DNA of 62,917 nt from Minisyncoccota bacterium (GCA_040880645.1 JBBDHZ010000266.1:1-62917), one strand, 5' to 3'. Numbered from the stretch's first letter, positions 21,192 through 55,633 are shown. Translations and numbers: made by a program. The notes: generated by a model not told the origin, from the letters alone.

Positions 21192-21533
21192 TTAAAGTGT
21201 TTTGGCGTAATACAGCAACTCTTGGCTCGATTTCCCGATCAGCAGCCCCTGTTCGTCCACATCCTCGATGCGGCATTCGGCGAGTTTCCCTGATCCCAAC
21301 GGGAAGTCTTGGAGGATGTCTCCCGTTCGGACATCGATGGTGAGTAGATGCCAACGTGTCGGATTGGGTTCGACGTAGTGCTTCTTGGTCGGGTGCGGCT
21401 TGAAGGGGCGCTCATCAGAGAGGACGAGATAGAGATACGGTACAGCAAGTCGGTACGAGTAACGAGCGGCTTCAGGTCGTCCGAATAAGCAGACTCGTCC
21501 AGTTTCAGCGAAGGGGAAGTCGGTCGTCACCAA
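21192..21533 (-). CDS. hypothetical protein
   Basis: 113-aa ORF directly abutting the stop of the ASCH gene (21534). Confidence 0.5.
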   Translation of the reverse strand: MVTTDFPFAETGRVCLFGRPEAARYSYRLAVPYLYLVLSDERPFKPHPTKKHYVEPNPTRWHLLTIDVRTGDILQDFPLGSGKLAECRIEDVDEQGLLIGKSSQELLYYAKTL

Positions 21534-21977: not shown

Positions 21978-21989
21978 CCTCCCCCGAAA

Positions 21990-39124: not shown

Positions 39125-40633
39125 ATGCTTAAGCAAATCAAGATTGCTGACATCAAGATCGGGAAACGTCACCGCAGAGACATGGGCGATCTTGCCTCCT
39201 TGGCTGACAGCATTCGGCAGATCGGACTACTACACCCGATTGGCGTGACAGAGGACTGCCGACTAGTCTTCGGGCAGCGTCGGCTCCTAGTGCAAAGGGA
39301 CATTCTCAAGAAGAACACAATCCTCGCTCATGTCATCAGCATTGACTTCATCGTCTCAGGCGAACATGCCGAAAACGAAGTCCGCAAAGATTTCACTCCT
39401 TCTGAGCGGGTCGCCATTGCTAAAGCCATCGAACAAAAGATCGGTAGCCGACAAGGGCAACGCACGGACAAGCAACTTCGGGGAAATATCCCCGATGTGT
39501 CTCCAGGCAAACGCACTCGTGAAATTGCAGCAGAGAAGGCGGGGTTCGGGAACGACAAGACTTTCCGCCAGGCCGCCCAAGTCGTCGAAAGCGGCACGCC
39601 GAATCTCGTTCAAGCAATGGACGACGGACGGGTCAGCATTTCGGCGGCGTCGATCATTGCCAATGCCAGCCCTGATGAGCAAGAAACAATCGTTGAATTG
39701 GATTCGAAGGCAATTCTTCAAGCAGCGAAGGAGATTCGAGCGAGGAACGCTGAGAAGCGGGCAGAGCATCAGGCGGCGACGACCGTTAAGCCGCAAAGCC
39801 GAACTAAAAAGCAGTCGCTAAAGGCGACTCGCCTGATCCACGGCGATTGTTGTAAGGAGATGGCGAAGCTGAGGGCAAATAGCGTTGATCTCGTCCTAAC
39901 GGACCCGCCGTATCCAGAAATCAACCGTGAGTACGGAAAGCTCACTGAGGCTAAATGGCACGAGTTAATGCATGAGGTCGTGGACCAGGGCCGCCGTGTG
40001 CTGAAACCCAGTGGATCAATGGTCGTTATCCTTCAGCCCAATTTCGAGAAAATTGGGAAAATGCGTCTTTGGTTGTGGGAGTTCATGGCATGGGCAGGCC
40101 GAGAGTGGAACGTGATCCAAGATGCGTACTGGTGGAATCACGGGTGTTTGCCATCGGTAAGCTCGAACCGCAAGCACGGCTTGATGCGTCAATCGGTAAA
40201 AACGTGCGTGTGGTTGGGACCAGCAGATTGCTACCGCAACCAGGACGATGTGCTTTGGCTTCCGTCTGACGACAACTTCGCCCAGTCCAAGTCGGATGCA
40301 GCCATGCGAGTTGCCCCGTCAGGCCAGCATTATCGTGGGTCGAGGATCGGTGATACCGTCGCCGAGCGTGGCGGATCAACTCCCTTCAACTTGCTACCGG
40401 TAGCCGCAGGAGGCGGGGCTGCGGCAAACAATAGTCACCCAGCCTCCACTCCGTATGCCGTTGCTGCCTGGTGGGTGAAATATCTTTTGCCGAACAAGGG
40501 TGTATTGCTCGACTGCTTCGCAGGTTCAGGAACAATGCTTCTGGCGGGCTTGGATTTTGGAGCGTCGAGAGTCATCGGAATTGAAAAGCAAAAGAAGTAT
40601 CTCAAAATCGCAGAGAAACGGCTCTGCGAGTGA
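39125..40633 (+). CDS. ParB-like N-terminal domain fused to a DNA methyltransferase (beta-class N6A/N4C)
   Basis: ParB-N: IKIGKRHRRDMGDL..LADSIRQIGLLHPI. Motif IV DLVLTDPPYP precedes motif I VLDCFAGSGTMLLAG. Confidence 0.9.
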   Translation: MLKQIKIADIKIGKRHRRDMGDLASLADSIRQIGLLHPIGVTEDCRLVFGQRRLLVQRDILKKNTILAHVISIDFIVSGEHAENEVRKDFTPSERVAIAKAIEQKIGSRQGQRTDKQLRGNIPDVSPGKRTREIAAEKAGFGNDKTFRQAAQVVESGTPNLVQAMDDGRVSISAASIIANASPDEQETIVELDSKAILQAAKEIRARNAEKRAEHQAATTVKPQSRTKKQSLKATRLIHGDCCKEMAKLRANSVDLVLTDPPYPEINREYGKLTEAKWHELMHEVVDQGRRVLKPSGSMVVILQPNFEKIGKMRLWLWEFMAWAGREWNVIQDAYWWNHGCLPSVSSNRKHGLMRQSVKTCVWLGPADCYRNQDDVLWLPSDDNFAQSKSDAAMRVAPSGQHYRGSRIGDTVAERGGSTPFNLLPVAAGGGAAANNSHPASTPYAVAAWWVKYLLPNKGVLLDCFAGSGTMLLAGLDFGASRVIGIEKQKKYLKIAEKRLCE

Positions 40634-42281: not shown

Positions 42282-42746
42282 TTATAATTGGCTCTGCTCA
42301 CACGCCTGCACCATCGCCTTTAGCGACTCCTCATCAGCCAATCGATGATCGTTCCCAACGACAACCAGCGACTCAGAGGGGAGGTCGCTGTTGACAAGAA
42401 GCTCCAGGGAGTTGCTGAAGGGGATCGTTTCGTCGGCTTTGCTGTGCAGGATGACCGTGTTCGGCTTGATCGTCTTAACGGTGCCCCAGTTCTTCCATGC
42501 TGGGCACAGAAGGACGAGCGGCGTGTCTTTGGATTCAATGTTCATGGCGACGGCACCGCCACGAGATGAGCCAACGACGACATCAGGCTCGTGCTCGTCG
42601 TGCTGGGCTTGGGCGGTGCGGACGGCGGCATCGAAGTCGTCTTCGTGGAGTGTTGGATTGATGACGGAGTGACCGTGGCTCTTGAGGTAGGTCGGCTTCA
42701 CGCCGCCCGGAGCCGAGTGCCAGCCGTGGAGATAGAGGATTATCAT
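42282..42746 (-). CDS. small alpha/beta-fold esterase (YqiA-like)
   Basis: IILYLHGWHSAP, a nucleophile elbow VVGSSRGG, and VILHSKADETIPF. Confidence 0.75.
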   Translation of the reverse strand: MIILYLHGWHSAPGGVKPTYLKSHGHSVINPTLHEDDFDAAVRTAQAQHDEHEPDVVVGSSRGGAVAMNIESKDTPLVLLCPAWKNWGTVKTIKPNTVILHSKADETIPFSNSLELLVNSDLPSESLVVVGNDHRLADEESLKAMVQACEQSQL

Positions 42747-42778: not shown

Positions 42779-43633
42779 TTATTGGCTAAGGATTCGCATG
42801 GTTTTTGGTCCAAGCTGCCTGGCCTCTTCGTTAGTAGGGGGGATATCAAAAGCTTCTTGCCAATGGGTCAGTTGGTACTCGGGTAACCTCTCCAGCACTT
42901 GCTGGGCTACTTTGGATATGTAGCCGTCTGCGGAAACGGAATCCCGCAACCCGTCAACTAGCGTATTGAAACTTTGGACGAGATTGCGCCGAGCCAGTCG
43001 CTCAAGAGCAAATAGATGTGCGTAGGCCTCAGCCGCAATCACGTCTAGATGCCGGCTAGGAACGTCAAAGTTAATCCCTCGCTCCAGATCCTCGACGTGA
43101 CCAATCTCGTGAACCAGCGAAATAATCTTGAACGCATACTTTAGCTCATGGTGCTGAACCGAAGTCTGTACGGAACGTCGGATGAGTATTACGCTTCGCA
43201 CGTTACCAGCAGAGTCGTGGAATGCGCTCATCGATCCGCAAAGGTTGGCGTCCAGAGGACTACTTCCATAGTCAGCAAAGGTATCTTCGATCTTGAAGAA
43301 CACTTGCTCCAAGTCGCTATAACCAAATTGTGACCATTCCTGCGTCTCGGCTGCGAATGTCTGATCATCAACTTCGTGAACTCCAAGAAGGGAGGGGTAA
43401 GCCGCTTTTGCCGCCTCTACTGTGCGGTGAAACTCCTCGGAGTAAGAGTCGAGATAATCGTAAAACGGAAGATCACATCCCCGGCTCCGCAGAAGCGCTT
43501 TCATATGGGGGGCTTTCGCCCGAAACTCTTTAATTGTCGCTTTTTCTTGACGCCATTTACGATTCCTCTGTTCCTTCTCAGCGTTCTTCTTCGTGTGCTT
43601 CTTATTCTTATTCTTATTTGCGTTCTTGCTCAT
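42779..43633 (-). CDS. putative zinc metalloprotease (HExxH) with lysine-rich N-terminus
   Basis: ATG at 43633 after GGAGG. N-terminus MSKNANKNKNKKHTKKN. Motif SLVHEIGHVED. Confidence 0.65.
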   Translation of the reverse strand: MSKNANKNKNKKHTKKNAEKEQRNRKWRQEKATIKEFRAKAPHMKALLRSRGCDLPFYDYLDSYSEEFHRTVEAAKAAYPSLLGVHEVDDQTFAAETQEWSQFGYSDLEQVFFKIEDTFADYGSSPLDANLCGSMSAFHDSAGNVRSVILIRRSVQTSVQHHELKYAFKIISLVHEIGHVEDLERGINFDVPSRHLDVIAAEAYAHLFALERLARRNLVQSFNTLVDGLRDSVSADGYISKVAQQVLERLPEYQLTHWQEAFDIPPTNEEARQLGPKTMRILSQ

Positions 43634-43714
43634 ACAGTCTCGCCTCCGTTTAAAGTAAACTTTTCTGTCCGCTCCACTCGTCTCTGTTTTGGCAGTGCCG
43701 CAGGGCACCGCCAG

Positions 43715-44635
43715 TCACCGAGGGCCTAGTCGATCAAAGAGGCTCTTCAGCGTGGTGCAAACCGTCGAAAGCGGCGTCGCCAGTTGCTCAACATGCTTTA
43801 ATTCGGCGGGAGCGGCAAACGTGACGGGGTTCAGTCCAAGCAGATCACTTGGCATCTTCAGATCCAGTCCCCTGGGGCACACTATCACGGTGCGTTCCCT
43901 TCCTAGTTGCCCCATGAACAAACCGAGTTCAAAGACGACGTTGTCTCTCGGTGCTACCGACTGTTTCCGGCGACTCCGAGTCACGTCGTCAGGCATTACC
44001 ACCGCCACAGCGAAATCTGCTGCCGCCACTTCCCGCTCAAGGTCCTCCATGGCCTGCTTCATAGGGCCGAATACCTGATCTGTCCAGACTTTGACATCGC
44101 TAGTGTGATGGTCCAGCTTCAATTGAATCTGTTCGGCAATTGCGAGGTATTCGCTCGATGAGCAAACGAAGACGTGCGGAACCTCGTTTGGACGGCGGAT
44201 CATCTGGTTGCGGTTCCGAAGCCGGTCGCACAGTTCCACTGCTACTCGCCGCCAGAGAGCCGGAAACTCTTCGGCAGCACAAGCGAAGGCAGGCTCAGCA
44301 ACTCTTGCAACAACTGTTTTTTCTGCGGCAATCACGTCTGCGCTTCTTTTGGCCTTGCAGTCGATCAATGCCATCTCGCCGACGTGCGTACCAGCCTGCC
44401 GAATAGCCACCAACCTGCCGTTGGCCTCGATTCGGAGACTACCCGCAACGATCAAGAATAGGTCGTTGTCTTCGTCATCCTGCGAGATCAGCACTTCGCC
44501 AGATGCCAACTCGGATGGTTCGGCTACTTCAAGCAAGCGATCTGCAATTGCATGATCTCCCTTGACGAGCGATTGATTCAACAAAGCATCCCGCAAGAGT
44601 CGCTTCCCGTCACCGCCCTGGAATCGTTCGATCAT
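43715..44635 (-). CDS. cyclic-nucleotide-binding domain + TIR-like (COG4271/CAP12-type) effector
   Basis: CNB: GEVLISQDDEDNDLFLIVAGSLRI...GTHVGEMALI..KRSADVIA. C-terminal half: VFVCSSSEYL...DFAVAVVMPDD...PRDNVVFELGLFMGQLGRERTVIV. ATG at 44635 (MIERFQGG). Confidence 0.85.
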   Translation of the reverse strand: MIERFQGGDGKRLLRDALLNQSLVKGDHAIADRLLEVAEPSELASGEVLISQDDEDNDLFLIVAGSLRIEANGRLVAIRQAGTHVGEMALIDCKAKRSADVIAAEKTVVARVAEPAFACAAEEFPALWRRVAVELCDRLRNRNQMIRRPNEVPHVFVCSSSEYLAIAEQIQLKLDHHTSDVKVWTDQVFGPMKQAMEDLEREVAAADFAVAVVMPDDVTRSRRKQSVAPRDNVVFELGLFMGQLGRERTVIVCPRGLDLKMPSDLLGLNPVTFAAPAELKHVEQLATPLSTVCTTLKSLFDRLGPR

Positions 44636-44666
44636 TGGCTGCGGTCTCCCATCACGCCTGGCCGAG

Positions 44667-45242
44667 CTACAGTTTTCCCAAATGACATTTCTTGAACTTC
44701 TTGCCGCTCCCGCACGGACATGCATCATTTCTGCCCACCCCACCGATTTCCTGAATTGCTTCACGGATGCCCTCAATCCCGTGTGAACGGTCCGGCCCGG
44801 GCCATTCGGCAACACCGCCACGCAGATTCTTTTCAATCAGTCGTTGCTGGTATATTCTTTCCTTGAGCAAGAAGGTGTGAATGACGGCGAACAACTCGTT
44901 CAGCGATGTGTCGGCGGCGAATGTAATCCCCGACTCTGCTGGCACGAAGAGGCACAGTTTCCAATCGGATTCAATGTGACTATTGCGCTCTTTTTCCCAC
45001 CGATCTCTGTGGCTTTCAAGGTATACCGAGGGAGGCTGGTTGCGGGCCGGGAAATTCGTCGGATAAACGATCCGCAAGCTGACGGCCTCGTACAGATGGC
45101 CATGCTGCGAGTAGAGATTGAAGACGCCACGGATGCAGGCGAGGCCGTCGCTTCCAATTTCGGCTCTGCACTCGTCCAAAATCTCGGAAGCGATTTCCTG
45201 CTCCCGCCGCCAACGTTCCGGCGTAATACTGTGCCAAGACAC
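44667..45242 (-). CDS. Prok-E2 (UBC-fold)-like protein with C-terminal SEC-C zinc motif
   Basis: UBC-like YEAVSLRIVYPTNFPARNQPPSVYLES...NSHIESDWKLCLFVP. The protein ends DACPCGSGKKFKKCH. A GTG at 45242 lies 4 nt after the cyclase stop, with GGAG 7 nt upstream. Confidence 0.7.
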   Translation of the reverse strand: MSWHSITPERWRREQEIASEILDECRAEIGSDGLACIRGVFNLYSQHGHLYEAVSLRIVYPTNFPARNQPPSVYLESHRDRWEKERNSHIESDWKLCLFVPAESGITFAADTSLNELFAVIHTFLLKERIYQQRLIEKNLRGGVAEWPGPDRSHGIEGIREAIQEIGGVGRNDACPCGSGKKFKKCHLGKL

Positions 45243-45246
45243 TTGG

Positions 45247-46809
45247 TTACTCCGACATCCATGGGGTGCTGTTCCGCCACGGCTTCGCCGCCGTGTTGCC
45301 ACCCGTCGTGACCTGGATTCGCCCGTTAACGACGGTCGCACCGAGACTGCCAGCTTCCGCTGCCTTTTCCTCCCTCGTCTCATCGAGTTTCAGGAACGTC
45401 AGGTCCGTGGCAACATATGCGTTTCCACGCTTCGTGAATTGCTCCGTGACATTCTCATCTTCAAGCTGTTCGTAGATTTCGGTGGAGATGCGGATTTGTT
45501 TTGCGCCGGAAAGACGCTGAAGACGCTCGGCCTCGGTGACTTCCGGCCCGAAGCAGATCGTGATGCGTTTGCCCTTCTTGCCGAGCCTCGTGACGAATGC
45601 CTTGCCAACGTCCAACCCAACGGCGACGTTGATGTCCTCCCGGTCAGCGAGATGTTCATTGAGTACCTGTTCCATCGACGATTGCAGGCCAATGGCGAGA
45701 TCGACCGCATCTTGGCAGCGAGTGTCATGGTTGCCGCTACCACTGGGCAAGTGCAGCAGGCCGAGGATGCAGTCACCACGGTGTTGCAGAACCAGCCCAT
45801 CGAAATCGCTGGAGACGACCGAGTGGAACTCGGCCCGGATCATGTGAAACTGCCGGATCAGACTGACAACCTTTTCGTCCGTTTCTGCCTCCTGAACGTA
45901 GCGGGTGAAGCCGTCAAGGTCGGCATAGAAGGCAACCGCCGCCGTCCGCTTGCACTTCTGCTCGCTGAGCTTCGTGACATCGATCAGCGTCGTGGCGTCC
46001 GAGATCGTGATTTTATCCAGCGGAAGATCGTCTTTGTGCTTCTGAGTCTTATTCTTCCACTTCTCTTCGTGCCACGTCACGCCGAGTTCGTCAGCCAACT
46101 CCGGTTTGCAACTCCAGCGAAGGCCGGACGCTCTGTAGGTCTGCACGCCAGACACCTCGGCGTCTTTGCTGAAGTGCTTCCTCAGACATTCCGGCAGCAC
46201 CTCGTACATCTCAGCGGTTACGGTAACGGAATCCCGCCCGCCAATGATCTTCGCCGCAAGGTTGGCGCAGGTGCCGAGGGAAATCAGTTCCCGTTTTCCG
46301 TTCTTTCCGATGTTGGCGAGGTAACAGGTGCCGCTAGCCAAGCCGACAGCGCTGCTGAAGTTGCGAACATCGCCGAAAACCCCGTTGAACACGTCCAGGA
46401 CATAGGTATTCTGCGTAATGGCGTGAATCACGGCGATTTTAGCCCGCTCGGCGTTTTTCGGATCTCCTTTCCCGTTGTAAGGCTTGAAAACTAGACCGTG
46501 CGCTCGGACGGTCTGCCGCTGAATATCGCCGACTCCGCCCTGCTCCATGAGTTCACGCTGAATCCGGCGCAGAATACTAGAGGCACGAATCAACTTCCGC
46601 TGTTTCTGCTGGTCGTTTCCGGCGTCATCCACCGCACGATGGAAGTTGGGCACATCGACGTAGAGGTGAACTCCCTGTGCCCGGCGAACGTCCTTTTTGC
46701 CGAGTTTTGAAAAGTCCATCGACCGGGACATGTCTTGGACGTTCACCTCAAAATCGCTGAAGTCGTTTTTCTGGACTCGCTCCTGAGCCCGTTTTTCATT
46801 CCACGCCAT
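45247..46809 (-). CDS. tandem class III nucleotidyl cyclase-domain protein (degenerate N-domain + intact C-domain)
   Basis: C-domain: VAFYADLDGFTRYV, VLQHRGDCILGLL, VAVGLDVGKAFVTRLG...FGPEVTEAERLQ. N-domain: VHLYVDVPNFHR, VRAHGLVF, SAVGLASGTCYLANIG..LGTCANLAAKI (metal-binding Asp residues partly lost). Confidence 0.85.
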   Translation of the reverse strand: MAWNEKRAQERVQKNDFSDFEVNVQDMSRSMDFSKLGKKDVRRAQGVHLYVDVPNFHRAVDDAGNDQQKQRKLIRASSILRRIQRELMEQGGVGDIQRQTVRAHGLVFKPYNGKGDPKNAERAKIAVIHAITQNTYVLDVFNGVFGDVRNFSSAVGLASGTCYLANIGKNGKRELISLGTCANLAAKIIGGRDSVTVTAEMYEVLPECLRKHFSKDAEVSGVQTYRASGLRWSCKPELADELGVTWHEEKWKNKTQKHKDDLPLDKITISDATTLIDVTKLSEQKCKRTAAVAFYADLDGFTRYVQEAETDEKVVSLIRQFHMIRAEFHSVVSSDFDGLVLQHRGDCILGLLHLPSGSGNHDTRCQDAVDLAIGLQSSMEQVLNEHLADREDINVAVGLDVGKAFVTRLGKKGKRITICFGPEVTEAERLQRLSGAKQIRISTEIYEQLEDENVTEQFTKRGNAYVATDLTFLKLDETREEKAAEAGSLGATVVNGRIQVTTGGNTAAKPWRNSTPWMSE

Positions 46810-47002
46810 TTCGATTTCTCCATGCCAGATCGAGCAAATAAATAGAATTGCTAGCAGACTCGCTGCAATCGCTACAGTCTATCGGTTCGCTATGCAGGAA
46901 GTCAAGCGGCTCACTTGCAGAACCGCCGAATTGAAGCGGACGGAGGAATGCCGTAGGATTTCGTTTTCTAATTACGGAATTAATCGAGAGAGAGCGTGCC
47001 GA

Positions 47003-47413
47003 ATGGCCACCGTGGGGGATCGAATCAGAGATCGTCGAGAAAAGCTCGGCTGGAAGCAGGACGACTTGGCCAGCAAGGCCGGGATCAGTAAGAGTTTTCT
47101 TTCAGACCTAGAAAATGGAAAGCGAAAGGTTGGAGCCGACAAGCTCCTTGACATTGCCCGTGCCCTGAGCTTGTCGCTCGATTACCTAATGACCGGAAGG
47201 GATGCCGAGAACGCATCGCAAGCCGCCCGTGACGTACAAATACCCACGGCGCTGGCCGAGTTCGCTGAAGACGAAGGGCTAACTTTTCGGCAGACCATCG
47301 CCCTGCTGGATATGCAGAACCAGATCATCGCCCACCGAAGCAGCACAAAGAAAGGTAATCTGGAAAAAATCGATTGGCAGAAGTTCTACGAAGCCGTGAA
47401 GGAATTCCTGTGA
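47003..47413 (+). CDS. XRE-family HTH regulator (CapH-like)
   Basis: GDRIRDRREKLGWKQDDLASKAGISKSFLSDLENGKRKVGADKLLDIARAL. It is divergent from the cyclase operon. Confidence 0.85.
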   Translation: MATVGDRIRDRREKLGWKQDDLASKAGISKSFLSDLENGKRKVGADKLLDIARALSLSLDYLMTGRDAENASQAARDVQIPTALAEFAEDEGLTFRQTIALLDMQNQIIAHRSSTKKGNLEKIDWQKFYEAVKEFL

Positions 47414-48411
47414 CCGCATTAGACCAAGAGCAAGACGTAGTTGATCTCGCCCAACGCCTGAGCCTCGGCGGCGACCCAGTCGAAGCGATCATTAACTTCT
47501 GCCAGAAACAGGTCGATGTGTGGGTTCGAGAGGCTGGAGGTGTCGAGACCATCGGCGAATTGGAGGCGTTGATTGCCTCTCGCCTGAACCTCGTTATCGA
47601 AGAGGTCGGGAATGACGCTGATCTCGATGATCTGAAACGCCGGTATGTGCAAAAGGGCGAAATCGTTTTTGCGCATGTCGTGCAGAACGATCTGACACCT
47701 GAGACGTTCGGCACGATGGTTCGGCTCAAAGATGGCTCTCACGTTGCGGTGATCGATTGCCGAGGTGAGAAAGCTGCTCGGCGTTTTTTTACACGGTGGC
47801 ATGAAATTGCGCACCTGTTGGTTGAGCCTGACTGTGAGCAGCAGGTTTTTCGTGCGTCGGACGAGCCGCTAGAAAGGCTGATGGATCAGATCGCCGGTCA
47901 CGTTGGCTTTTACGACTCGATCTTCACGCCCCTCTTCAACACACATTTGTCTCACGGCGAGTTGCTGACGTTCGACAGGATCGATGATATCCGAAAGGCG
48001 TTCTGTCCCCACGCCAGCTTTCAATCAACGCTCTTTGCCTGCCAGCGGCGAATGAGGACGCCCGTGCTGTATCTTGAAGCTAGCATGGCATACACCGAAG
48101 ACGAGCGGCGTAGCCTAAGGCAGGCTCGGATGTTTGCGGACGACTGCCCCGAGAAGAAGCTTCGTGTTCGCTTGACGCTGCCGAACAAAGCTGCTGGTGA
48201 CATGAAGCTTGCGGCTCGGCGGAACATGCAAGTGCCTGAGTCGTCGGTCATCTATGCGGCATTTCATGACCAGCTAACCGCTGCAACAGGCGAAGAAAAC
48301 CTCAAGACATGGACGTTTTCAAGCGGCGGCAGTCTGATGGATTGCGAGGTATTTGTTCAAGCACGTCGAGTGGAAGATAGTGTGATGGCAACCGTTCAAC
48401 CCAGAGCTTGA
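47410..48411 (+). CDS. ImmA/IrrE-family zinc metallopeptidase (CapP-like)
   Basis: FTRWHEIAHLL contains the HExxH motif. The GTG start overlaps the HTH stop (GTGA at 47410-47413) and follows AAGGAA. Confidence 0.8.
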   Translation: MTALDQEQDVVDLAQRLSLGGDPVEAIINFCQKQVDVWVREAGGVETIGELEALIASRLNLVIEEVGNDADLDDLKRRYVQKGEIVFAHVVQNDLTPETFGTMVRLKDGSHVAVIDCRGEKAARRFFTRWHEIAHLLVEPDCEQQVFRASDEPLERLMDQIAGHVGFYDSIFTPLFNTHLSHGELLTFDRIDDIRKAFCPHASFQSTLFACQRRMRTPVLYLEASMAYTEDERRSLRQARMFADDCPEKKLRVRLTLPNKAAGDMKLAARRNMQVPESSVIYAAFHDQLTAATGEENLKTWTFSSGGSLMDCEVFVQARRVEDSVMATVQPRA

Positions 48412-48431: not shown

Positions 48432-49367
48432 TTACTGGTGACATGCTGACATGATGAAAAGAAGGATGTGCTTGTTGGCTCTTTGGAGACCACTGAAGTA
48501 GGCCTTCCTTTTCTCGGTCGCCTCTTCGCCAGTCACGTGGCGGTTGAGCATTATGGTACCTGGGTCGGGCACATTTGCAGTTATGTCATCGATTGCAGCG
48601 TGCCTACCAGGTCCAAAAACGTGTCGCAACTCTTCCAGACGTTTCAGTTGAAGCCGAGCGATATTAACAGCTTCCTCAAATGCTTCCGGGTCGTCACTTC
48701 GGACCGCATGGGTCTCGATTAGCGATTGTATATTTAAGTAAACTCTTAAGAGTTCCTCAAGTCGCCAAACATGCGACCCCTCCTCGGTTACGATGCTTAA
48801 GGACGGGTGGAGCTTGCGGATTTCCGGCTCCAAGTCACGCACGAGAATTTGCAGCGACTGACTGACCCTAGCCTGCACAACCAATCCTTCAACGACGGGA
48901 AAGGTAGCGAGCTTGTCCATCGTTGGGTCAGCCGTCATTCGCCACTGGCTTAGCTGCCTGAGCGATTCGAGTGCGTTCATGTACGAAGCGAGGAATAACC
49001 GCTTCTCCGATTCCTGCTGTGTTTCAACCATGCGGCGATGCTCCTGCCTCGTTGCCTTCAGTTCTTGGCGTGTCAGCTTCATTTCTTCCCGTTGGAGCTG
49101 CAACTCTCTTCGTTGCATCCAAAGCGTGACCAACACACCCGCAAACACTAACGCAGACAATAGTGCGTTTACAAAGCCGAACGAATCACCCCACTGAGCT
49201 GCTGCTTCTGGAAACGTCTCTGCCCAGTCAGGCCGCAATAGGAACGTCACCCAAGGGGTCAGCCCAACCAATGCGCCTAGTACCAGAACGGCAATGAATA
49301 CCCAAAAAATCGTCTGCCACCGAAAGAAGTCAGCATCATTTATGTCATTCGGTTTCATCGTTGTCAC
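48432..49367 (-). CDS. two-TM coiled-coil membrane protein
   Basis: TM segments IFWVFIAVLVLGALVGL and LLSALVFAGVLVTLW, then RRELQLQREEMKLTRQELKATRQEHRR. The start overlaps the upstream HTH stop (GTGA). Confidence 0.65.
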   Translation of the reverse strand: MTTMKPNDINDADFFRWQTIFWVFIAVLVLGALVGLTPWVTFLLRPDWAETFPEAAAQWGDSFGFVNALLSALVFAGVLVTLWMQRRELQLQREEMKLTRQELKATRQEHRRMVETQQESEKRLFLASYMNALESLRQLSQWRMTADPTMDKLATFPVVEGLVVQARVSQSLQILVRDLEPEIRKLHPSLSIVTEEGSHVWRLEELLRVYLNIQSLIETHAVRSDDPEAFEEAVNIARLQLKRLEELRHVFGPGRHAAIDDITANVPDPGTIMLNRHVTGEEATEKRKAYFSGLQRANKHILLFIMSACHQ

Positions 49368-49705
49368 TCGTCCCCAATCTCCTCCAGCAGTCGATCAATC
49401 GCTTCATCGTCGAGCTGTGCAAAACGACGGAAAGCATCTGGGCGTTCGATAACCCGCTGTTTGATCCCGTTCGGTATCTTCTCAGCCAGAATCAGAAGCT
49501 CGTCCACATCGGCATCCAGCGTTGCTGCAAGCCTGGCAATCAACTCATCACCCGGGTAGTCGCCGAAACCCAGTTTCTCGTTTTCGATCTTGGAAATGTA
49601 GGTGAAGGAAACACCGACCGCTTCGGCCAACGCCCGCAAGGAAAGGCTCTTCGCCTTGCGGAGTTCTCGAATTCTCAGGCCGAATCGCATCGGGGTGGTC
49701 TCCAT
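49364..49705 (-). CDS. XRE-family HTH regulator
   Basis: FGLRIRELRKAKSLSLRALAEAVGVSFTYISKIENEK. Confidence 0.85.
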   Translation of the reverse strand: METTPMRFGLRIRELRKAKSLSLRALAEAVGVSFTYISKIENEKLGFGDYPGDELIARLAATLDADVDELLILAEKIPNGIKQRVIERPDAFRRFAQLDDEAIDRLLEEIGDE

Positions 49706-49744
49706 GGTTGCGAGCTACGACGCCCAACAATACGATGGGTTGAA

Positions 49745-49782
49745 CAAAGAGTCAACGCAACAGCAAAGAGTCAACGCAACAG
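49745..49782. promoter_or_regulatory. perfect 19-bp tandem direct repeat (candidate operator)
   Basis: CAAAGAGTCAACGCAACAG occurs at 49745-49763 and again at 49764-49782. This lies in the divergent intergenic region, ending inside the AGGAGG at 49781-49786. Confidence 0.6.
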
Positions 49783-49792
49783 GAGGGGTCCG

Positions 49793-51010
49793 CTGAAACC
49801 CGAGCTACTCGAACAACTGCTTTACGAAGAAGAGGGGCCAACGCTGGACTTCAAGCGGGACCAGTACGCCTTCAGTAAGGCCACGGACGAGGAGAAAAGC
49901 GAACTTTTGAAGGACATCCTCGGATTTGTGAATTGCTGGCGACGGTCCGAAGCCTTCATCCTGATCGGGGTTGAAGAAGTCCGAGGCGGTCGCAGCAACG
50001 TACACGGTGTTTCGGATCACTTGGATGATCATTCGCTTCAGCAGTTCATAAACAACCTGACGAATCGGCCTGTCCAATTTGGCTACGAAGCCTGCGAATT
50101 TGAGGGCCAGCAGGTGGGGATCATTCGGGTCGAGTTGCAACGGCGACCCGTGTACCTGAAACGGGACTACGGCAAGCTGAAAAAAGGACTAGTCTACGTC
50201 CGGCGTGGCAGCTCCACCGATCCCACAAAGCCTGCCGATCCCGATGAGATTGCGCACATGGGGAGCGGACAGGCTGTTGAAGCGAAAGAAGCATCGCTGA
50301 CAGTGGAATTTGCTTCGACAGAGAGCGAGCAATCGCTGGGCAGTCTAATCGATTTGTCAGCCGAATTCTGCCAGATGCCAACATCAGAACAGATTCCTAC
50401 GCTCGATGACACACCAGCTCCGATTCGTCTGCCTGGCGGCGAAACTTTCCAGATACCGAGCTCCTCGTCGCTGGACTTTTATAACCGCCTAAATCCTGAT
50501 TTTTTCCGTGAGCTTGCCGAATATGTCGTCTTTCACAAACTCCTCAAGAAGGTGCGGTTAGTTGTACTGAATGCAGGGGAATCACCAGCCACAGATGTCC
50601 GTCTCGAAATCTGTATACCGGACGGTCAGGGCTTCGGAGTTGTCGACTTGCTAGAAGCTCCTGAGACTCCGAAGCGACGAACGGGCCTTTTAGTTGCCTC
50701 TGCGATTGAGAACATGAGACGACAACCTCTAATCCGACAGGCTGGTGATGTGGATATCGACAAGAACGACCACCGAACAAAGATTGAAATCGAATGCGGC
50801 AATCTTCAGCCAGGACGCAAGGTTTGGACGGACGCCTTTTATATTGGCATTGGCCAAGCGGGCGAATTCAAAATGACTGGAAACGTCTTTTCAGCTAACC
50901 TTTCCCAGCCCCAGGAGTTTACCTTGGCAATTAACGCCGACTTTATCGAAACAACGATGACCGTTGACGAGCTGGTGGCGCTGGGAAATTCGGATGAGGA
51001 CGAGGAGTAG
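49793..51010 (+). CDS. AlbA_2 / Schlafen-like (divergent AAA_4) domain protein
   Basis: EGPTLDFKRDQY..., LLKDILGFVNCWRRSEAFILIGVEE, VGIIRVELQRRPVYL. The start is uncertain. No ATG/GTG/TTG lies in frame after the divergent gene, and a CTG at 49793 sits 6 nt after AGGAGG. Confidence 0.65.
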   Translation: MKPELLEQLLYEEEGPTLDFKRDQYAFSKATDEEKSELLKDILGFVNCWRRSEAFILIGVEEVRGGRSNVHGVSDHLDDHSLQQFINNLTNRPVQFGYEACEFEGQQVGIIRVELQRRPVYLKRDYGKLKKGLVYVRRGSSTDPTKPADPDEIAHMGSGQAVEAKEASLTVEFASTESEQSLGSLIDLSAEFCQMPTSEQIPTLDDTPAPIRLPGGETFQIPSSSSLDFYNRLNPDFFRELAEYVVFHKLLKKVRLVVLNAGESPATDVRLEICIPDGQGFGVVDLLEAPETPKRRTGLLVASAIENMRRQPLIRQAGDVDIDKNDHRTKIEIECGNLQPGRKVWTDAFYIGIGQAGEFKMTGNVFSANLSQPQEFTLAINADFIETTMTVDELVALGNSDEDEE

Positions 51011-51072
51011 AACGTGGTCGGAGATAATTGCCGCAGTTAATGAGAGAGACCGCAGGGGAAGGCAGAAACGAA

Positions 51073-54000
51073 ATGGAAACAGCAACTGCCACGACGAACG
51101 TGCCCGAGCAAGGACAACTGGTGCAGGTTCGTTCTCGGCGGTGGGTCGTCAATAACGTGAAGCCCAGCAGCCTGCCCGCTGTCGCTTTTAAGCCGGAATT
51201 TGCAGGTCCCCAGAACTTGCTGACGCTTTCCTCCGTGGAAGACGACGGCCTAGGCGAAGAACTTCAGGTCGTTTGGGAGGGCGAGCCGGGTGCCCGTGTC
51301 ATCGAGAAGGTTGCTCTGCCCGACCCGACTGGTTTCGATGCTCCCGACAAGCTCGACGCTTTCCTCGACGCCGTTCGCTGGGGCGCAGCTTCCACGGCTG
51401 ACCTGAAGAACATCCAGTCGCCCTTCCGAAGTGGCATCGAGATTGAGGACTACCAGCTTGACCCCGTGGTCCGGGCGATCCAGATGCCGAGGGTCAACCT
51501 GCTCATTGCCGACGATGTTGGCTTGGGAAAAACCATCGAAGCAGGGATGGTCGCTCTCGAACTGTTGATTCGTCACCGAGCGAGGAAGATGCTGATTGTC
51601 GTCCCGTCGTCGCTACAGATTCAGTGGCGGGATCAGATGCGGGACAAGTTCGGCCTTGAGTTCCGCATCGTCGATTCCGAGTTGATGAAGGAATTGCGTC
51701 GAAAAAGAGGTATCCATGTTAATCCGTGGAGCCACTTCCCACGGCTCATCACGAGCATCGATTTTCTGAAGCGGGAACGACCACTCCGTCTGTTCCGAGA
51801 GACCCTGCCTGCACCGGGCGAACCAATTTATCCCCGCAAGTACGACCTACTGATTTGCGACGAGGCCCACAACTGCGCCCCTTCTGGTCGAGGCAAATAC
51901 GCCACCGATTCGATGAGGACGCAGGCCCTACGGGAACTTGCCCCACATTTCGAGCACAAGCTGTTCCTCACGGCCACACCCCACAACGGATATCGGGAGA
52001 GCTTCAGTGCTCTGCTAGAACTGCTGGACAACCAACGGTTTTCTCGTGGAACAGACCCGGATCGCAAGCAGCTTGAAGCGATCATGGTTCGACGACTGAA
52101 AACCGACCCAAGTTTTGCAAAGAAGTGGGACGGCACGCCTCGCTTTCCGCCTCGTGTCCTCGAACCCATCGAAGTGCCGTACACGGACGAGGAACGGGAA
52201 ATTCATGCAGCGTTGCGTGAATACACGAAACTCCGCTCTGACCGAGCAACCGACAACACGGAGCGGTTCGCCACGGAGTTCGTGCTGAAGACGCTGAAGA
52301 AGCGACTGTTTTCCAGTCCTGCTGCTTTCCTCACCACGCTGGAACGTCACGAGAAGTCACTCAAGTCGGCAAAGAAAAAGGTCGTGGCAAAGCCAAAGAT
52401 GAGCGTGCTCCAGCGTGAGTTCGACCGGATGGAGGAGGATTACGCCGACGACTTCGAGTACGACGAGGCAACGGACGACGCCCTCGATTCGGCGACACGG
52501 CTGTTTGCCGAGCCGACTAGTGAGGAAAAAGCGTTACTGAAACAGATGAAAAAGTGGGCCGAGCGTGCCCGTGCGCAACAGGACTCGAAAACCAAGCAGT
52601 TGATTGAGTGGCTGAAGGACAACCTCAAGCCGGGCGGCAATTGGTCCCACGAGCGGGTCATCATCTTCACCGAGTACCGAGCGACGCAGAACTGGTTGCA
52701 AGAGGTGCTTGCCACTGAAGGCTTCGGTGGTGGTGATAGGCTGATGACTATGTACGGTGGCATGGACAGCGACCAGCGGGAAGCCGTCAAAGCCGCTTTC
52801 CAAACTGATCCTGAAAAGAGTCCGGTTCGCATCCTGCTGGCGACTGATGCTGCATCGGAAGGTCTCGATTTCCAGAACTTCTGCTCTCGGTTGATCCACT
52901 ACGAGATTCCGTGGAACCCGAACCGAATGGAGCAGCGAAACGGTCGTGTGGACAGGCACGGTCAGAAGGCCGACAAGGTGATGGTCTACCACTTCGTCGG
53001 TAAGGGCTACAACGAGCGAGCCGCTCGCCAGTCCAGCGGCCATGCTTCAGACATGGAGGCCGACCTTGAATTCCTCATGCGGGTCGCTCAGAAGATCGAG
53101 ACAATCCGAGAAGACCTCGGCAAAGTCGGTCCAGTGATCTCCGAGCAAGTGGAAGAGGCGATGTTAGGTCGGCGGTCAACGCTACAAACCGCTGACGCCG
53201 AGCGTGACGCCGAGCCGATCCGCAAGATGCTTCGTTTCGAGCGTGACCTGCACAAGCAGGTTCAGGCGTTGATGGAGCAGTACAGGGAGACTCGTCGGGA
53301 ACTGCGGTTGTCCCCGGAGAACGTCCAAAAAGTTGTAACGGTGGCTCTCGAACTAGCCGGGCAACCAGCGTTAGTGCCGACCAAGACCGAAGACGGCACG
53401 CCCTGCTTCCAGCTACCGCCACTCAAAGGAAGTTGGGCGGCATGTGCCGAAGGCTTGGAACATCCTCACACCAAAGAGATTCGCCCGATCACCTTCAGCG
53501 AGTCCGTGAGCAAGGGTCGGGACGATGTGGTGCTGGTTCACCTGAATCATCGCCTGCCGCAGATGTGCCTGCGGCTGCTGCGTGCGGAGGTTTGGGCGGA
53601 AAAAGGTCGGTCAAAACTGGAGCGTGTGACCGCACGTGTCATTCCCAACGATATCATCGACTCTCCAGCCATGATCGCCCACGCTCGACTGGTGGTGATC
53701 GGCGGGGACAGCTACCGGCTGCACGAAGAGATCATCGCCGCTGGTGGGCTCATCAAGGAAGGGAAGTGGGGTGGTCGCCTGAACGTCGGGCAGACGGAGA
53801 AGGCATTGGCGGCTGGAAGGGATCAAGAGCCATCTTCAGCAGTCGAGGAGAAACTGCTGGAGCTTTATCCCGAGCTTGTGCCGTCGCTTGCTTCGGCCCT
53901 CGAAGCACGAATGAAGGATCGGGTCGGCGGTTTAGAGAAACGGCTCAACGAACGTGCCGAGAAGGAAGCCAAAGACATCGAGGCAATTTTGACGGAACTC

Positions 54001-54243
54001 AAGAAAGCCATCGAAGCCGAACTGAACGACCCGGAATACCACCAATTGACGCTTTTCGATGATGCGGAGCGAAATCAGTTCGAGCGGAACAAGAGCGCCA
54101 TGCGGTCGAGGGCGCAAGAGATTCCGGGTGAGATCGAGCGGGAGACGGAGGCGATCAGAGCCAGATTTGCGAATCCGCAGGCGAGGATGTTCCCGGTGGC
54201 GGTGACGTTCTTGGTGCCTGAAAAGTTGGCGGGAGGTGCGTGA
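51073..54243 (+). CDS. SNF2-family helicase (DISARM DrmD-like)
   Basis: DYQLDPVVRAI, ADDVGLGKTIEAG, LICDEAHN, LFLTATPHNG. Helicase-C region: VIIFTEY, LLATDAASEGLDFQ, YEIPWNPNRMEQRNGRVDRHGQ. Confidence 0.9.
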   Translation: METATATTNVPEQGQLVQVRSRRWVVNNVKPSSLPAVAFKPEFAGPQNLLTLSSVEDDGLGEELQVVWEGEPGARVIEKVALPDPTGFDAPDKLDAFLDAVRWGAASTADLKNIQSPFRSGIEIEDYQLDPVVRAIQMPRVNLLIADDVGLGKTIEAGMVALELLIRHRARKMLIVVPSSLQIQWRDQMRDKFGLEFRIVDSELMKELRRKRGIHVNPWSHFPRLITSIDFLKRERPLRLFRETLPAPGEPIYPRKYDLLICDEAHNCAPSGRGKYATDSMRTQALRELAPHFEHKLFLTATPHNGYRESFSALLELLDNQRFSRGTDPDRKQLEAIMVRRLKTDPSFAKKWDGTPRFPPRVLEPIEVPYTDEEREIHAALREYTKLRSDRATDNTERFATEFVLKTLKKRLFSSPAAFLTTLERHEKSLKSAKKKVVAKPKMSVLQREFDRMEEDYADDFEYDEATDDALDSATRLFAEPTSEEKALLKQMKKWAERARAQQDSKTKQLIEWLKDNLKPGGNWSHERVIIFTEYRATQNWLQEVLATEGFGGGDRLMTMYGGMDSDQREAVKAAFQTDPEKSPVRILLATDAASEGLDFQNFCSRLIHYEIPWNPNRMEQRNGRVDRHGQKADKVMVYHFVGKGYNERAARQSSGHASDMEADLEFLMRVAQKIETIREDLGKVGPVISEQVEEAMLGRRSTLQTADAERDAEPIRKMLRFERDLHKQVQALMEQYRETRRELRLSPENVQKVVTVALELAGQPALVPTKTEDGTPCFQLPPLKGSWAACAEGLEHPHTKEIRPITFSESVSKGRDDVVLVHLNHRLPQMCLRLLRAEVWAEKGRSKLERVTARVIPNDIIDSPAMIAHARLVVIGGDSYRLHEEIIAAGGLIKEGKWGGRLNVGQTEKALAAGRDQEPSSAVEEKLLELYPELVPSLASALEARMKDRVGGLEKRLNERAEKEAKDIEAILTELKKAIEAELNDPEYHQLTLFDDAERNQFERNKSAMRSRAQEIPGEIERETEAIRARFANPQARMFPVAVTFLVPEKLAGGA

Positions 54244-55631: not shown

Positions 55632-55633
55632 TC

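What the first reader, a model, noticed from the sequence alone, without database searches (positions are those of the whole stretch)
42779..48411. Pycsar/CBASS-like cyclic-nucleotide defence module with an unusual gene set, plus divergent CapH/CapP-like regulators
On the minus strand, tightly spaced, are three genes:
- a 520-aa protein made of two class III nucleotidyl-cyclase domains (45247..46809);
- 4 nt later, a UBC-fold Prok-E2-like protein ending in a SEC-C zinc motif (44667..45242);
- 31 nt later, a cNMP-binding domain fused to a TIR-like COG4271/CAP12-type domain (43715..44635).

A HExxH protein and a small esterase follow on the same strand. Divergently transcribed from the cyclase are an XRE HTH and an overlapping ImmA/IrrE HExxH peptidase. 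This pair is known as CapH/CapP, which controls CBASS-type operons.

A cyclase plus a cNMP-sensing TIR effector is the logic of Pycsar. The pseudo-heterodimeric tandem cyclase and the stand-alone E2-like/SEC-C protein, with no E1 or JAB partner, are not parts of Pycsar or CBASS as I know them. I rate this the most likely undescribed system variant in the window.
Basis: partly seen in the sequence, partly recalled or inferred. Interest (0 to 1): 0.85.

Follow-up and report, generated by a model that had tools for sequence, protein, structure and literature searches.

The report
Pycsar defence operon with E2 partner
This is an intact copy of a known bacterial anti-phage alarm system (Pycsar, the class with a two-domain cyclase) with a ubiquitin-E2-like helper gene and a repressor/protease switch; the gene set is already described, but the E2 helper's role has not, as far as I could find, been tested.

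Summary
The novelty argument does not hold.

- **Cyclase.** The 520-aa "tandem cyclase" is a full-length clade A PycC. That clade is defined by two consecutive cyclase domains and has a solved structure (P. aeruginosa, PDB 6YII).
- **Effector.** It is a canonical PycTIR. Every cUMP-contacting residue of PsPycTIR is conserved at identical numbering.
- **E2 partner.** Stand-alone E2s are known in about 616 E2-CBASS systems. An E2-type gene follows the two-domain cyclase on all eight proteobacterial plasmids examined, including the P. aeruginosa pycC locus. PADLOC has E2 models, RefSeq names "E2 domain-containing protein", and a 2026 preprint describes an E2-linked "Pycsar-like-4" subclade.
- **Conserved module.** In 16 of 18 related loci it is XRE + M78 peptidase (usually), cyclase, E2–SEC-C, and a swappable PycTIR or PycTM.
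- **Not part of it.** The HExxH protein is absent from every relative, and the small hydrolase recurs only at varying positions.

Two points remain interesting. Three natural cyclase–E2 fusions exist. The cyclase tail carries an invariant Pro-Trp instead of the glycine used in E2-CBASS, which hints at cyclase-tail recognition by the E2. That step is untested.

Verdict: new member of a known kind.

The parts
47003..47413 (+). XRE-family HTH repressor, CapH-like (136 aa; the mechanical ORF starts at 46892)
   Evidence: Pfam HTH_3 E 5e-16. PADLOC capH E 1e-14. Homologues of 136-138 aa sit at the same divergent position in L081 and L088.
47410..48411 (+). HExxH metallopeptidase of the ImmA/IrrE (M78) type, CapP-like. 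HEIAH lies at 47800..47814. The start overlaps the XRE stop codon.
   Evidence: PADLOC capP weak (E 3e-5). No Pfam or PDB sequence hit. hhalign aligns the RRFFTRWHEIAHLL motif to bona fide M78 proteins that occupy the same position in L082/L083/L086/L090 (E 0.0016). 71-74% identical orthologues occur in L081 and L088.
46867..46905 (-). Promoter-like site (TTGACT-18 nt-TAGACT) with two embedded TAGCGA repeats. Likely promoter plus operator of the cyclase operon.
   Evidence: Promoter scan. This block is the only strongly conserved stretch of the intergenic region across window, L088, L081 and L098. No inverted repeat was found.
45247..46809 (-). Clade A PycC: a two-domain (pseudo-heterodimeric) class III cyclase. 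It has a C-terminal helix/hairpin and a flexible tail that ends in an invariant Pro516-Trp517 (45259..45264).
   Evidence: PADLOC PycC PDLC02366 E 4e-103, full length. PDB 6YII E 7e-38 over residues 2-447. Foldseek TM 0.82 to 6YII for a 56%-identical homologue model. Metal-binding motifs ADLDGFT and HRGDC are invariant.
44667..45242 (-). Stand-alone E2 (UBC-fold) protein with a C-terminal SEC-C zinc motif. Invariant Cys97 (44952..44954) lies in W[KR]LCLFVP, and His89 is also invariant.
   Evidence: PADLOC E2 models E 1e-18 to 1e-10. AF2 model pLDDT 84 with Foldseek hits that are all UEV/UBC proteins. Invariant columns in alignment A1. SEC-C Pfam E 2e-10.
43715..44635 (-). PycTIR effector: cNMP-binding domain plus CAP12/Pycsar-type TIR NADase. 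Uracil-specifying Asn143 is encoded at 44207..44209.
   Evidence: PADLOC Effector/PycTIR E 9e-112, full length. PDB 8JSJ E 1e-46. Gapless alignment to 8JSK with G86, E87, A89, R97, S98, R138, N143, R4, R12 and E114 all conserved.

Best explanation
This is a clade A Pycsar anti-phage system with an E2 accessory protein and a CapH/CapP-type expression switch. It sits in a defence island of a probable planctomycete.

Proposed sequence of events:
1. The XRE repressor binds the conserved promoter/operator block and keeps the cyclase-E2-PycTIR operon low. The M78 peptidase cleaves the repressor on a stress or infection cue. This step is inferred from CapH/CapP.
2. The two-domain PycC has one competent active site, formed between a degenerate N-terminal domain and a catalytic C-terminal domain. 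On infection it makes a 3',5'-cyclic mononucleotide, most likely cUMP.
3. The E2-SEC-C protein acts on the cyclase itself. It recognises the cyclase's flexible C-terminal tail (invariant Pro-Trp, 3-4 residues from the end) and uses Cys97 to process or tether it, setting the cyclase's activity threshold. E2-only CBASS E2s do this for their CD-NTase. This step is inferred. I put it at about 0.45.
4. cUMP binds the CNB domain of PycTIR (Asn143). PycTIR oligomerises and hydrolyses NAD+, which aborts the infection.

Shown here: gene identities, conserved synteny, effector swapping, conserved ligand-contact residues, fusions, and the tail motif.
Inferred: everything dynamic.
For: Identity.
- Full-length PADLOC PycC and PycTIR hits.
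- PDB matches to 6YII (clade A PaPycC) and 8JSJ/8JSK (PycTIR).
- PMC11224242 states that clade A PycC has two consecutive cyclase domains and that clades A-D make cUMP.

Signal.
- All cUMP-contacting and oligomerisation residues of PsPycTIR are conserved at identical positions.

Module.
- In 16 of 18 distinct loci that carry this E2 family and have upstream sequence, the cyclase is directly upstream.
- The downstream effector is PycTIR in 11 loci and PycTM in 4.
- An XRE + M78 pair, or a fused HTH-M78, is adjacent in most loci.

Link between E2 and cyclase.
- Only 4 nt separate the two genes.
- Three independent natural cyclase-E2 fusions exist: P0226, P0238 and L103.
- An invariant Cys97/His89 lies in a UBC fold.
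- The motif [P/A/S]-[W/H/Y] occurs in the last 14 residues of 68 of 82 full-length family representatives, against 10-17 of 82 in control windows.
- The motif is present in every E2-linked cyclase inspected.
- An E2-type or E1-E2+JAB gene follows the cyclase on 8 of 8 proteobacterial plasmids.

Regulation.
- A promoter-like site lies in the only conserved intergenic block.
- PADLOC capH and capP hits.
- CapH/CapP is reported next to Pycsar (PMC13373217).

Context.
- Neighbouring genes include SLFN_AlbA_2, SNF2 + MmeI-like methylase, an AAA_15/21 ATPase and a ParB-methylase.
Against: - No experiment of any kind stands behind this.
- The cyclase tail has no conserved glycine, which the E2-CBASS chemistry requires. 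The E2 may therefore act differently or not covalently.
- The canonical E2 HPN asparagine is Glu here (H-I-E).
- I could not inspect inter-domain contacts or PAE of the fusion model. The high pTM (0.86) is only indirect support for a defined cyclase-E2 interface.
- The 6YII entry is titled an 'ATP-binding protein', and the 2026 preprint predicts an ATP preference for its E2-linked subclade. cAMP is therefore not excluded.
- The peptidase fails Pfam M78 and matches PADLOC capP only weakly.
- One related locus (L101) has the E2 without a cyclase upstream.
Confidence: 0.75

Rival explanations
1. The system is a Pycsar, but the E2 does not act on the cyclase. Instead it conjugates or senses something else, such as a phage protein (as in Bil systems) or a host target, or it acts as the infection sensor.
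For: No conserved C-terminal glycine on the cyclase. No ubiquitin-like protein or E1 is needed in this scheme either. The SEC-C motif is a peptide/zinc interaction module that could bind a third party.
Against: No Ubl gene is present in any locus. Three natural fusions put the cyclase C-terminus directly onto the E2. The tail motif occurs across the cyclase family, whose members were E2-linked wherever a context could be read. The E2 stays with the cyclase while effectors are swapped.
Confidence: 0.15
2. The E2-like protein is a non-catalytic UEV-like scaffold or pseudo-enzyme. It only stabilises or inhibits the cyclase by binding.
For: The best Foldseek hits are the non-catalytic TSG101 UEV domains. 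The HPN asparagine is replaced. There is no glycine at the cyclase C-terminus.
Against: Cys97 and His89 are invariant across 21 diverse homologues at the canonical E2 active-site position. Both are also conserved in the distant proteobacterial E2 family (HINxDGxFCL).
Confidence: 0.15
3. The signal is cAMP (or another purine cNMP) rather than cUMP, so the system is a purine-signalling relative of Pycsar.
For: 6YII is deposited as an 'adenylyl cyclase-like ATP-binding protein'. AF3 modelling in bioRxiv 10.64898/2026.08.12.744502 favours ATP for the E2-linked 'Pycsar-like-4' subclade.
Against: The effector keeps the uracil-specifying Asn143, Ser98 and Arg138 of PsPycTIR. Clade A PycC is reported to make cUMP (PMC11224242).
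Confidence: 0.15
4. The five minus-strand genes, including the HExxH protein and the hydrolase, form one larger novel system.
For: The genes are co-directional and tightly spaced (6-nt and 32-nt gaps). Hydrolase homologues recur near the module in L081, L088 and L093.
Against: The HExxH protein has no homologue in any of about 25 related loci. In L113 and L114 its family sits in contexts unrelated to Pycsar. In the closest relative (L088, cyclase 85% identical) the genes after PycTIR are on the other strand and unrelated. The hydrolase changes position and orientation from locus to locus.
Confidence: 0.05

Closest known systems
Clade A Pycsar of Pseudomonas aeruginosa (PaPycC, PDB 6YII; pycTIR-pycC locus on plasmid p382)
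   Same: Two-domain PycC (E 7e-38, TM 0.82), a PycTIR effector, and an E2-type gene whose start overlaps the cyclase stop (ORF L089 5533..6306, PADLOC E2 PDLC00868 E 9e-109). Both cyclases carry a C-terminal Pro-aromatic tail motif (QPHS in P. aeruginosa, TPWM here).
   Different: About 27% cyclase identity. Gene order is TIR-cyclase-E2 there and cyclase-E2-TIR here. The P. aeruginosa E2 is 257 aa with a roughly 100-aa cysteine-rich C-terminal domain, where the window has a 20-aa SEC-C motif. No XRE/M78 pair is annotated next to it.
Methylorubrum extorquens CM4 pCMU01 locus (ImmA/IrrE peptidase | cyclase, 'E2 domain-containing protein', TIR protein)
   Same: The same architecture and order, including a divergent ImmA/IrrE peptidase.
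   Different: Its E2 belongs to the cysteine-rich proteobacterial family. No separate XRE gene is listed; the 322-aa peptidase carries its own N-terminal region. The sequences are distant.
E2-CBASS (type II 'short' CBASS), Serratia marcescens CdnG-E2
   Same: A stand-alone E2 with a catalytic Cys and no E1 or JAB, encoded next to the signalling enzyme. Natural enzyme-E2 fusions exist. The signalling enzyme has an extra C-terminal helix/beta element and a tail.
   Different: The signalling enzyme is a class III cyclase, not a CD-NTase. The conserved penultimate glycine that forms the thioester/isopeptide bond is absent and is replaced by an invariant Pro-Trp. The E2 carries a SEC-C motif.
Type II CBASS / 'Type II Pycsar' with Cap2 (E1-E2) and Cap3 (JAB)
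   Same: Ubiquitin-like machinery attached to a nucleotide-signalling defence enzyme. A Pycsar example was seen here on the Mesorhizobium plasmid (cyclase, ThiF 570 aa, MPN/JAB, TIR).
   Different: The window has no E1 adenylation domain and no JAB peptidase.
CapH/CapP regulators (Lau et al. 2022, as cited in PMC13373217)
   Same: An XRE HTH followed by an overlapping HExxH M78-type peptidase, divergent from the immune operon. Association with Pycsar has been reported.
   Different: The window's peptidase is a long (333 aa) divergent form that fails Pfam M78. Cleavage and the DNA-damage response are untested.

Membership tests
Pycsar | PycC-type class III nucleotide cyclase | tested here: met
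   PADLOC PycC PDLC02366 E 4e-103 over 1-492 of 520 residues. Metal-binding Asp motifs are invariant.
Pycsar | Clade A: two consecutive cyclase domains in one chain | tested here: met
   Match to 6YII over residues 2-447. Foldseek TM 0.82 to 6YII, followed by two-domain AC9/sAC cores. The definition is taken from PMC11224242.
Pycsar | Adjacent effector with a cyclic-nucleotide-binding domain fused to a TIR or TM killing domain | tested here: met
   PycTIR full-length hit E 9e-112. PDB 8JSJ E 1e-46. PycTM replaces it in L083, L087, L099 and L103.
Pycsar | Cyclic pyrimidine (cUMP/cCMP) as the signal | not testable with these tools
   Indirect only. The sensor keeps N143, S98, R138, E87, G86, A89 and R97 of cUMP-bound PsPycTIR. 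AF3-based ATP preference has been reported for an E2-linked subclade.
Pycsar | Protection against phage | not testable with these tools
   Only the defence-island context supports this.
E2-CBASS (type II short) | CD-NTase (cGAS/DncV-like) signalling enzyme | tested here: not met
   The enzyme is a class III cyclase.
E2-CBASS (type II short) | Stand-alone E2 with an active-site Cys, without E1 or JAB | tested here: met
   PADLOC E2 hits. Invariant Cys97. No ThiF or JAB domain in the operon or its flanks.
E2-CBASS (type II short) | Conserved glycine at the penultimate C-terminal position of the signalling enzyme | tested here: not met
   The tail is ...S-x-P-W-x-S-x, with invariant P516 and W517 and no conserved Gly. 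The last residue is Gly in none of the commonest classes.
E2-CBASS (type II short) | Covalent enzyme-E2 adduct | not testable with these tools
   The only hints are natural in-frame fusions P0226, P0238 and L103.
Type II Pycsar / Cap2-Cap3 type | E1 (ThiF) adenylation domain fused to the E2, plus a JAB peptidase | tested here: not met
   Absent from the window. Present in the Mesorhizobium relative L112.
'Pycsar-like-4' subclade (bioRxiv 10.64898/2026.08.12.744502) | Pycsar-related cyclase whose gene neighbourhood holds an E2-like gene | tested here: met
'Pycsar-like-4' subclade (bioRxiv 10.64898/2026.08.12.744502) | Phylogenetic placement within that subclade | not tested
   The preprint's tree and accession table are not held. 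Its usual E2 fusions (inactive JAB, E1) and WYL regulators are absent here.
CapH/CapP | XRE HTH gene followed by an overlapping metallopeptidase gene, next to and divergent from the immune operon | tested here: met
   The same arrangement occurs in L081, L083, L086, L088, L095 and L098, and is fused in L082.
CapH/CapP | Peptidase belongs to the M78/ImmA-IrrE family | tested here: inconclusive
   HEIAH and the RRFFT-x-W-HE-x-x-H motif are present. PADLOC capP E 3e-5. hhalign to M78 positional orthologues E 0.0016, probability 16%. No Pfam or PDB hit.
CapH/CapP | ssDNA/DNA-damage-triggered cleavage of the repressor | not testable with these tools
   None.
UBC/E2 superfamily | UBC fold with the catalytic Cys after an HxN-type motif | tested here: met
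   Foldseek hits are all UEV/UBC proteins, with probability mostly 0.9-1.0 but E only 5e-3. YPxxFP...SH-I-E-x-D-W-x-L-C-L is present. The Asn of HPN is Glu. No Pfam Prok-E2 family matches.

The most novel reading that the evidence does not exclude
The E2 partner of two-domain (clade A) Pycsar cyclases recognises a conserved, non-glycine, aromatic C-terminal tail ([P/A/S]-[W/H/Y], Pro-Trp here). It then processes or tethers the cyclase without E1, JAB or a ubiquitin-like protein. That would be a glycine-independent version of E2-only 'peptide exchange-ligation', and it would make the E2 an overlooked core regulator of a whole Pycsar clade, including the much-studied P. aeruginosa system.
Probability: 0.25. 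Interest if true: 0.6.

Novelty: new member of a known kind. Interest (0 to 1): 0.35.

Why it matters
As a find, it adds a planctomycete family (about 160 E2 clusters and about 295 cyclase clusters in public data) to the E2-linked, two-domain-cyclase branch of Pycsar. That is useful for annotation. NCBIfam matches neither the cyclase nor the E2 core of this locus, and Pfam sees only SEC-C in the E2 and only one of the two cyclase domains.

The open question is wider: what does a lone E2 do in a cyclic-mononucleotide defence system? In the papers I could read, E2/E1/JAB proteins are listed as Pycsar accessories, but I found no experiment on them. Three results make a concrete, cheap test possible:
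- the family-wide aromatic tail motif
- the lack of the glycine that E2-CBASS needs
- three natural cyclase-E2 fusions

The test is to co-express cyclase and E2 and look for a tail-dependent, Cys97-dependent adduct or trimming.

An E2-type ORF directly follows pycC in the P. aeruginosa and Xanthomonas loci but is missing from the gene tables used here. Two-gene reconstitutions of clade A Pycsar may therefore have left out a component.

Tried and rejected
- **Genome-contig scan with the full E2 alignment.** It was swamped by the generic SEC-C pattern. Only L003 showed a weak E2-like match. I repeated the scan with an E2 core lacking SEC-C on metagenome contigs (16 loci) and on viral contigs (none).
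- **PDB sequence searches.** Searches with the E2 core, the cyclase tail, the peptidase and the HExxH protein found nothing beyond SEC-C peptides.
- **NCBIfam.** It gave nothing for the cyclase, the E2 core, the peptidase or the proteobacterial E2s.
- **Inverted-repeat search in the intergenic region.** None found. The candidate operator is a pair of direct TAGCGA repeats.
- **Fusion-model alignment A5.** MAFFT misplaced the first ~20 residues of the E2 rows onto the cyclase. The model was still confident. However, I cannot read its contacts or PAE, so I draw no interface conclusion from it.
- **Literature.** The Tal 2021 paper and the 6YII paper are not held, so I relied on later papers that cite them. 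The preprint's accession table is not held either, so equating this locus with 'Pycsar-like-4' remains an inference.
- **Idea rejected after testing.** I first took the Pro-aromatic tail in the P. aeruginosa cyclase as evidence against an E2 link, because no E2 was annotated there. The ORF scan then showed an unlisted E2 gene right after pycC.

Full report
**1. The observation**

All ORFs are present as described.
- Cyclase: 45247..46809(-), 520 aa.
- E2/SEC-C: 44667..45242(-). It starts at a GTG 4 nt after the cyclase stop, with a GGAG 7 nt upstream. About 120 homologues of 190-194 aa cover it end to end, which supports that start.
- CNB-TIR protein: 43715..44635(-), starting 31 nt after the E2 stop.

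Pfam finds Guanylate_cyc only in the C-terminal half of the cyclase, SEC-C in the E2, and cNMP_binding + CAP12-PCTIR_TIR in the effector.

Three starts need small corrections.
- XRE: most likely 47003.
- Peptidase: most likely GTG 47410, overlapping the XRE stop.
- HExxH protein: most likely 43633.

**2. The three core genes**

*Cyclase.*
- PADLOC's PycC model PDLC02366 matches it from residue 1 to 492 (E 4e-103).
- Its closest solved structure is 6YII from P. aeruginosa (E 7e-38 over residues 2-447).
- PMC11224242 identifies 6YII as PaPycC. [quoted passage not shown]
- An AF2 model of a 56%-identical homologue superposes on 6YII with TM 0.82. The next hits are the two-domain catalytic cores of AC9 and soluble AC.
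- The 'pseudo-heterodimeric tandem cyclase' is therefore the defining trait of a known Pycsar clade, not a departure from Pycsar.

*Effector.*
- It is a full-length PycTIR (PADLOC E 9e-112; PDB 8JSJ E 1e-46).
- Its CNB domain aligns without a gap to cUMP-bound PsPycTIR (8JSK).
- Every residue reported to contact cUMP is conserved at the same number: G86, E87, A89, R97, S98, R138 and the uracil-specifying N143. The same holds for the residues that drive oligomerisation: R4, R12 and E114.
- I therefore predict cUMP as the signal.

*E2.*
- It hits several PADLOC E2 models (best E 1e-18).
- Its AF2 model (pLDDT 84) retrieves only UEV/UBC folds from the PDB, at modest E-values.
- Twenty-one diverse homologues share an invariant YP..FP...SH-I-E-x-D-W-x-L-C-L signature, with Cys97 at the E2 active-site position.
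- No Pfam Prok-E2 family and no NCBIfam model sees the core.

**3. Co-occurrence**

I looked up contigs for six E2 homologues and scanned metagenomes with an E2 core stripped of SEC-C. In 16 of 18 distinct loci with upstream sequence, the two-domain cyclase lies directly upstream of the E2.
- The exceptions are L101 and L100. L100 has an N-terminally truncated E2.
- The gene after the E2 is PycTIR in 11 loci and PycTM in 4.
- The cyclase-E2 pair stays constant while the effector is swapped. That pattern is typical of modular defence systems.
- An XRE + M78 pair, or a fused HTH-M78 protein, is adjacent in most loci.

The organisms named are planctomycetes: Fuerstiella, Rhodopirellula, Stieleria and Tautonia. 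None of the viral contigs carries the E2.

**4. The extra genes**

*HExxH protein.* It has no homologue in any related locus.
- Its own family has 47 clusters of about 280 aa and no Pfam match. In L113 and L114 it sits in contexts unrelated to Pycsar.
- In the closest relative (L088, cyclase 85% identical), the genes after PycTIR are unrelated and on the other strand.

*Small hydrolase.* It recurs near the module in L081, L088 and L093, but at varying positions and orientations. I read this as shared island ancestry.

Neither gene belongs to the conserved system.

**5. How general, and how well known, the E2 link is**

A tblastn of the cyclase against plasmids found 25 records. I inspected eight of them.

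| Plasmid host | Gene(s) directly after the cyclase | Effector or next gene |
|---|---|---|
| Methylorubrum | 'E2 domain-containing protein' | TIR; divergent ImmA/IrrE peptidase upstream |
| Acinetobacter | E2 + 'E2 domain-associated cysteine-rich protein' | TIR |
| Sphingomonas | E2/cysteine-rich protein | PycTM |
| Bradyrhizobium | E2 | DUF2235 |
| Moraxella | 255-aa protein of the same family | cNMP-binding protein |
| Mesorhizobium | ThiF E1-E2 fusion + MPN/JAB | TIR |
| P. aeruginosa (pycTIR-pycC) | unlisted 257-aa ORF overlapping the cyclase stop | (pycTIR lies upstream) |
| Xanthomonas | unlisted 291-aa ORF overlapping the cyclase stop | PycTM |

- In the P. aeruginosa and Xanthomonas loci no E2 was listed in the gene table. 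The ORFs I found there match PADLOC E2 model PDLC00868 at E 9e-109 and 4e-83.
- These proteobacterial E2s share the H-I-[NE]-x-D-x-x-[FL]-C-L core with the window's E2. They carry a roughly 100-aa cysteine-rich domain where the window has SEC-C.

The literature agrees with this picture.
- E1/E2/DUB proteins are said to be accessory proteins of CBASS and Pycsar.
- 'Type II Pycsar' is used in PMC11601596.
- A 2026 preprint defines an E2-linked 'Pycsar-like-4' subclade.
- E2-only CBASS comprises 616 systems.
- CapH/CapP is reported next to Pycsar.

The gene set is therefore known. I found no experiment on any Pycsar E2.

**6. Hints about mechanism**

- *Fusions.* P0226 (716 aa, Phycisphaerales), P0238 (744 aa) and L103 (731-aa ORF followed by PycTM) are independent in-frame cyclase-E2-SEC-C fusions. 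This parallels the CD-NTase-E2 fusions noted for E2-CBASS.
- *C-terminal element.* After the second cyclase domain comes a helix, a beta-hairpin and a disordered tail. CdnG in E2-CBASS has a comparable extra C-terminal helix/beta element that recruits the E2.
- *Tail motif.* The tail ends in an invariant Pro516-Trp517, 3-4 residues before the stop.
  - Across 82 full-length representatives of the two-domain family (50%-identity clusters), [P/A/S]-[W/H/Y] occurs in the last 14 residues of 68. Control windows further upstream give 10-17.
  - Every E2-linked cyclase inspected has the motif: QPHS, TPYA, RPHS, KPHA, KAHA, RAHS.
  - E2-CBASS instead requires a conserved penultimate glycine that is joined to the E2 cysteine. 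That feature is absent here.

I therefore propose that the E2 recognises the aromatic tail of its cyclase and uses Cys97 to process or tether it. I rate this step at about 0.45. It may involve chemistry different from E2-CBASS, or no covalent chemistry at all.

**7. Regulation and context**

- The intergenic region holds a promoter-like TTGACT-18-TAGACT on the cyclase strand.
- That site lies inside the only block conserved among window, L088, L081 and L098. The block also holds two TAGCGA repeats, so it is a plausible promoter/operator.
- The peptidase carries RRFFTRWHEIAH, which aligns to bona fide M78 proteins at the same position in other loci. It matches PADLOC capP only weakly.
- The flanks encode SLFN_AlbA_2, an SNF2 helicase with an MmeI-like methylase, an AAA_15/21 ATPase and a ParB-methylase. 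This is a defence island.

**8. Verdict**

This is a real, intact, well-conserved clade A Pycsar with an E2-SEC-C accessory and a CapH/CapP-type switch. It is a new member of a known kind. The remaining interest lies in the untested role of the E2 and in the glycine-free aromatic tail.

Noticed in passing
L089 5533..6306 (P. aeruginosa plasmid p382) and L091 5401..6276 (Xanthomonas euvesicatoria pLMG930.1): An E2-type ORF (257 and 291 aa; PADLOC E2 PDLC00868 E 9e-109 and 4e-83) overlaps the stop of the annotated Pycsar cyclase pycC. It is missing from the gene tables used here. Two-gene descriptions of these clade A systems may omit a component.
   Followed up: partly
P0226 (716 aa), P0238 (744 aa), L103 4399..6591: Three independent natural in-frame fusions of the two-domain cyclase to the E2-SEC-C protein. 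In L103 the fusion is followed by PycTM.
   Followed up: partly
window 42779..43708 (-): HExxH-containing protein (probably 284 aa from ATG 43633) with a lysine/asparagine-rich N-terminus. Its family has 47 clusters and no Pfam, PDB, PADLOC or NCBIfam match. In the two other contexts read (L113, L114), it lies near an SNF2 helicase or McrBC genes. Function unknown.
   Followed up: partly
window 42282..42746 (-); L081 13728..15302; L088 3024..3509; L093 3100..3918: A small alpha/beta-hydrolase recurs within a few kb of the Pycsar module in four planctomycete loci. Its position and orientation vary, and in Fuerstiella it is part of a 524-aa protein. It is unclear whether this reflects shared island ancestry or a functional link.
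   Followed up: partly
window 49361..51010 (+) with 49364..49705 (-): A SLFN_AlbA_2 (Schlafen-like) protein with a small divergent XRE gene. SLFN_AlbA_2 homologues also sit next to the Pycsar regulators in L088 and near the module in L081. It may be a separate defence gene that travels with the module.
   Followed up: no
window 51028..59704 (+): An SNF2-family helicase (1071 aa), an unknown 463-aa protein and a 1356-aa MmeI/Eco57I-type methyltransferase-TRD protein lie in a row. This looks like a restriction-modification or BREX/DISARM-like defence module.
   Followed up: no
window 60284..61948 (+): An AAA_15/AAA_21 ATPase (554 aa) of the kind found in Gabija, PARIS and Septu-type or AbiEii-type defence systems.
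   Followed up: no
window 39125..40633 (+): A 502-aa protein with a DNA-methylase domain (N6_N4_Mtase). The N-terminal part reads as ParB-like by eye only and was not tested. This architecture is typical of mobile elements.
   Followed up: no
L081 8607..12380 (Fuerstiella marisgermanici CP017641): The PycTIR gene appears to be split by two IS elements (IS66 and IS4 family). A 253-aa N-terminal part and a C-terminal fragment lie on either side, so that copy of the system is probably inactivated.
   Followed up: no
L086 3279..4049: A 256-aa ThiF-family (E1-like) gene and a phage-type integrase lie just upstream of the HTH/M78-cyclase-E2-PycTIR module. This could be coincidence, or an E1 supplied in trans.
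   Followed up: no
window 19000..22000: G+C drops to 0.48, against about 0.55 elsewhere in the window.
   Followed up: no
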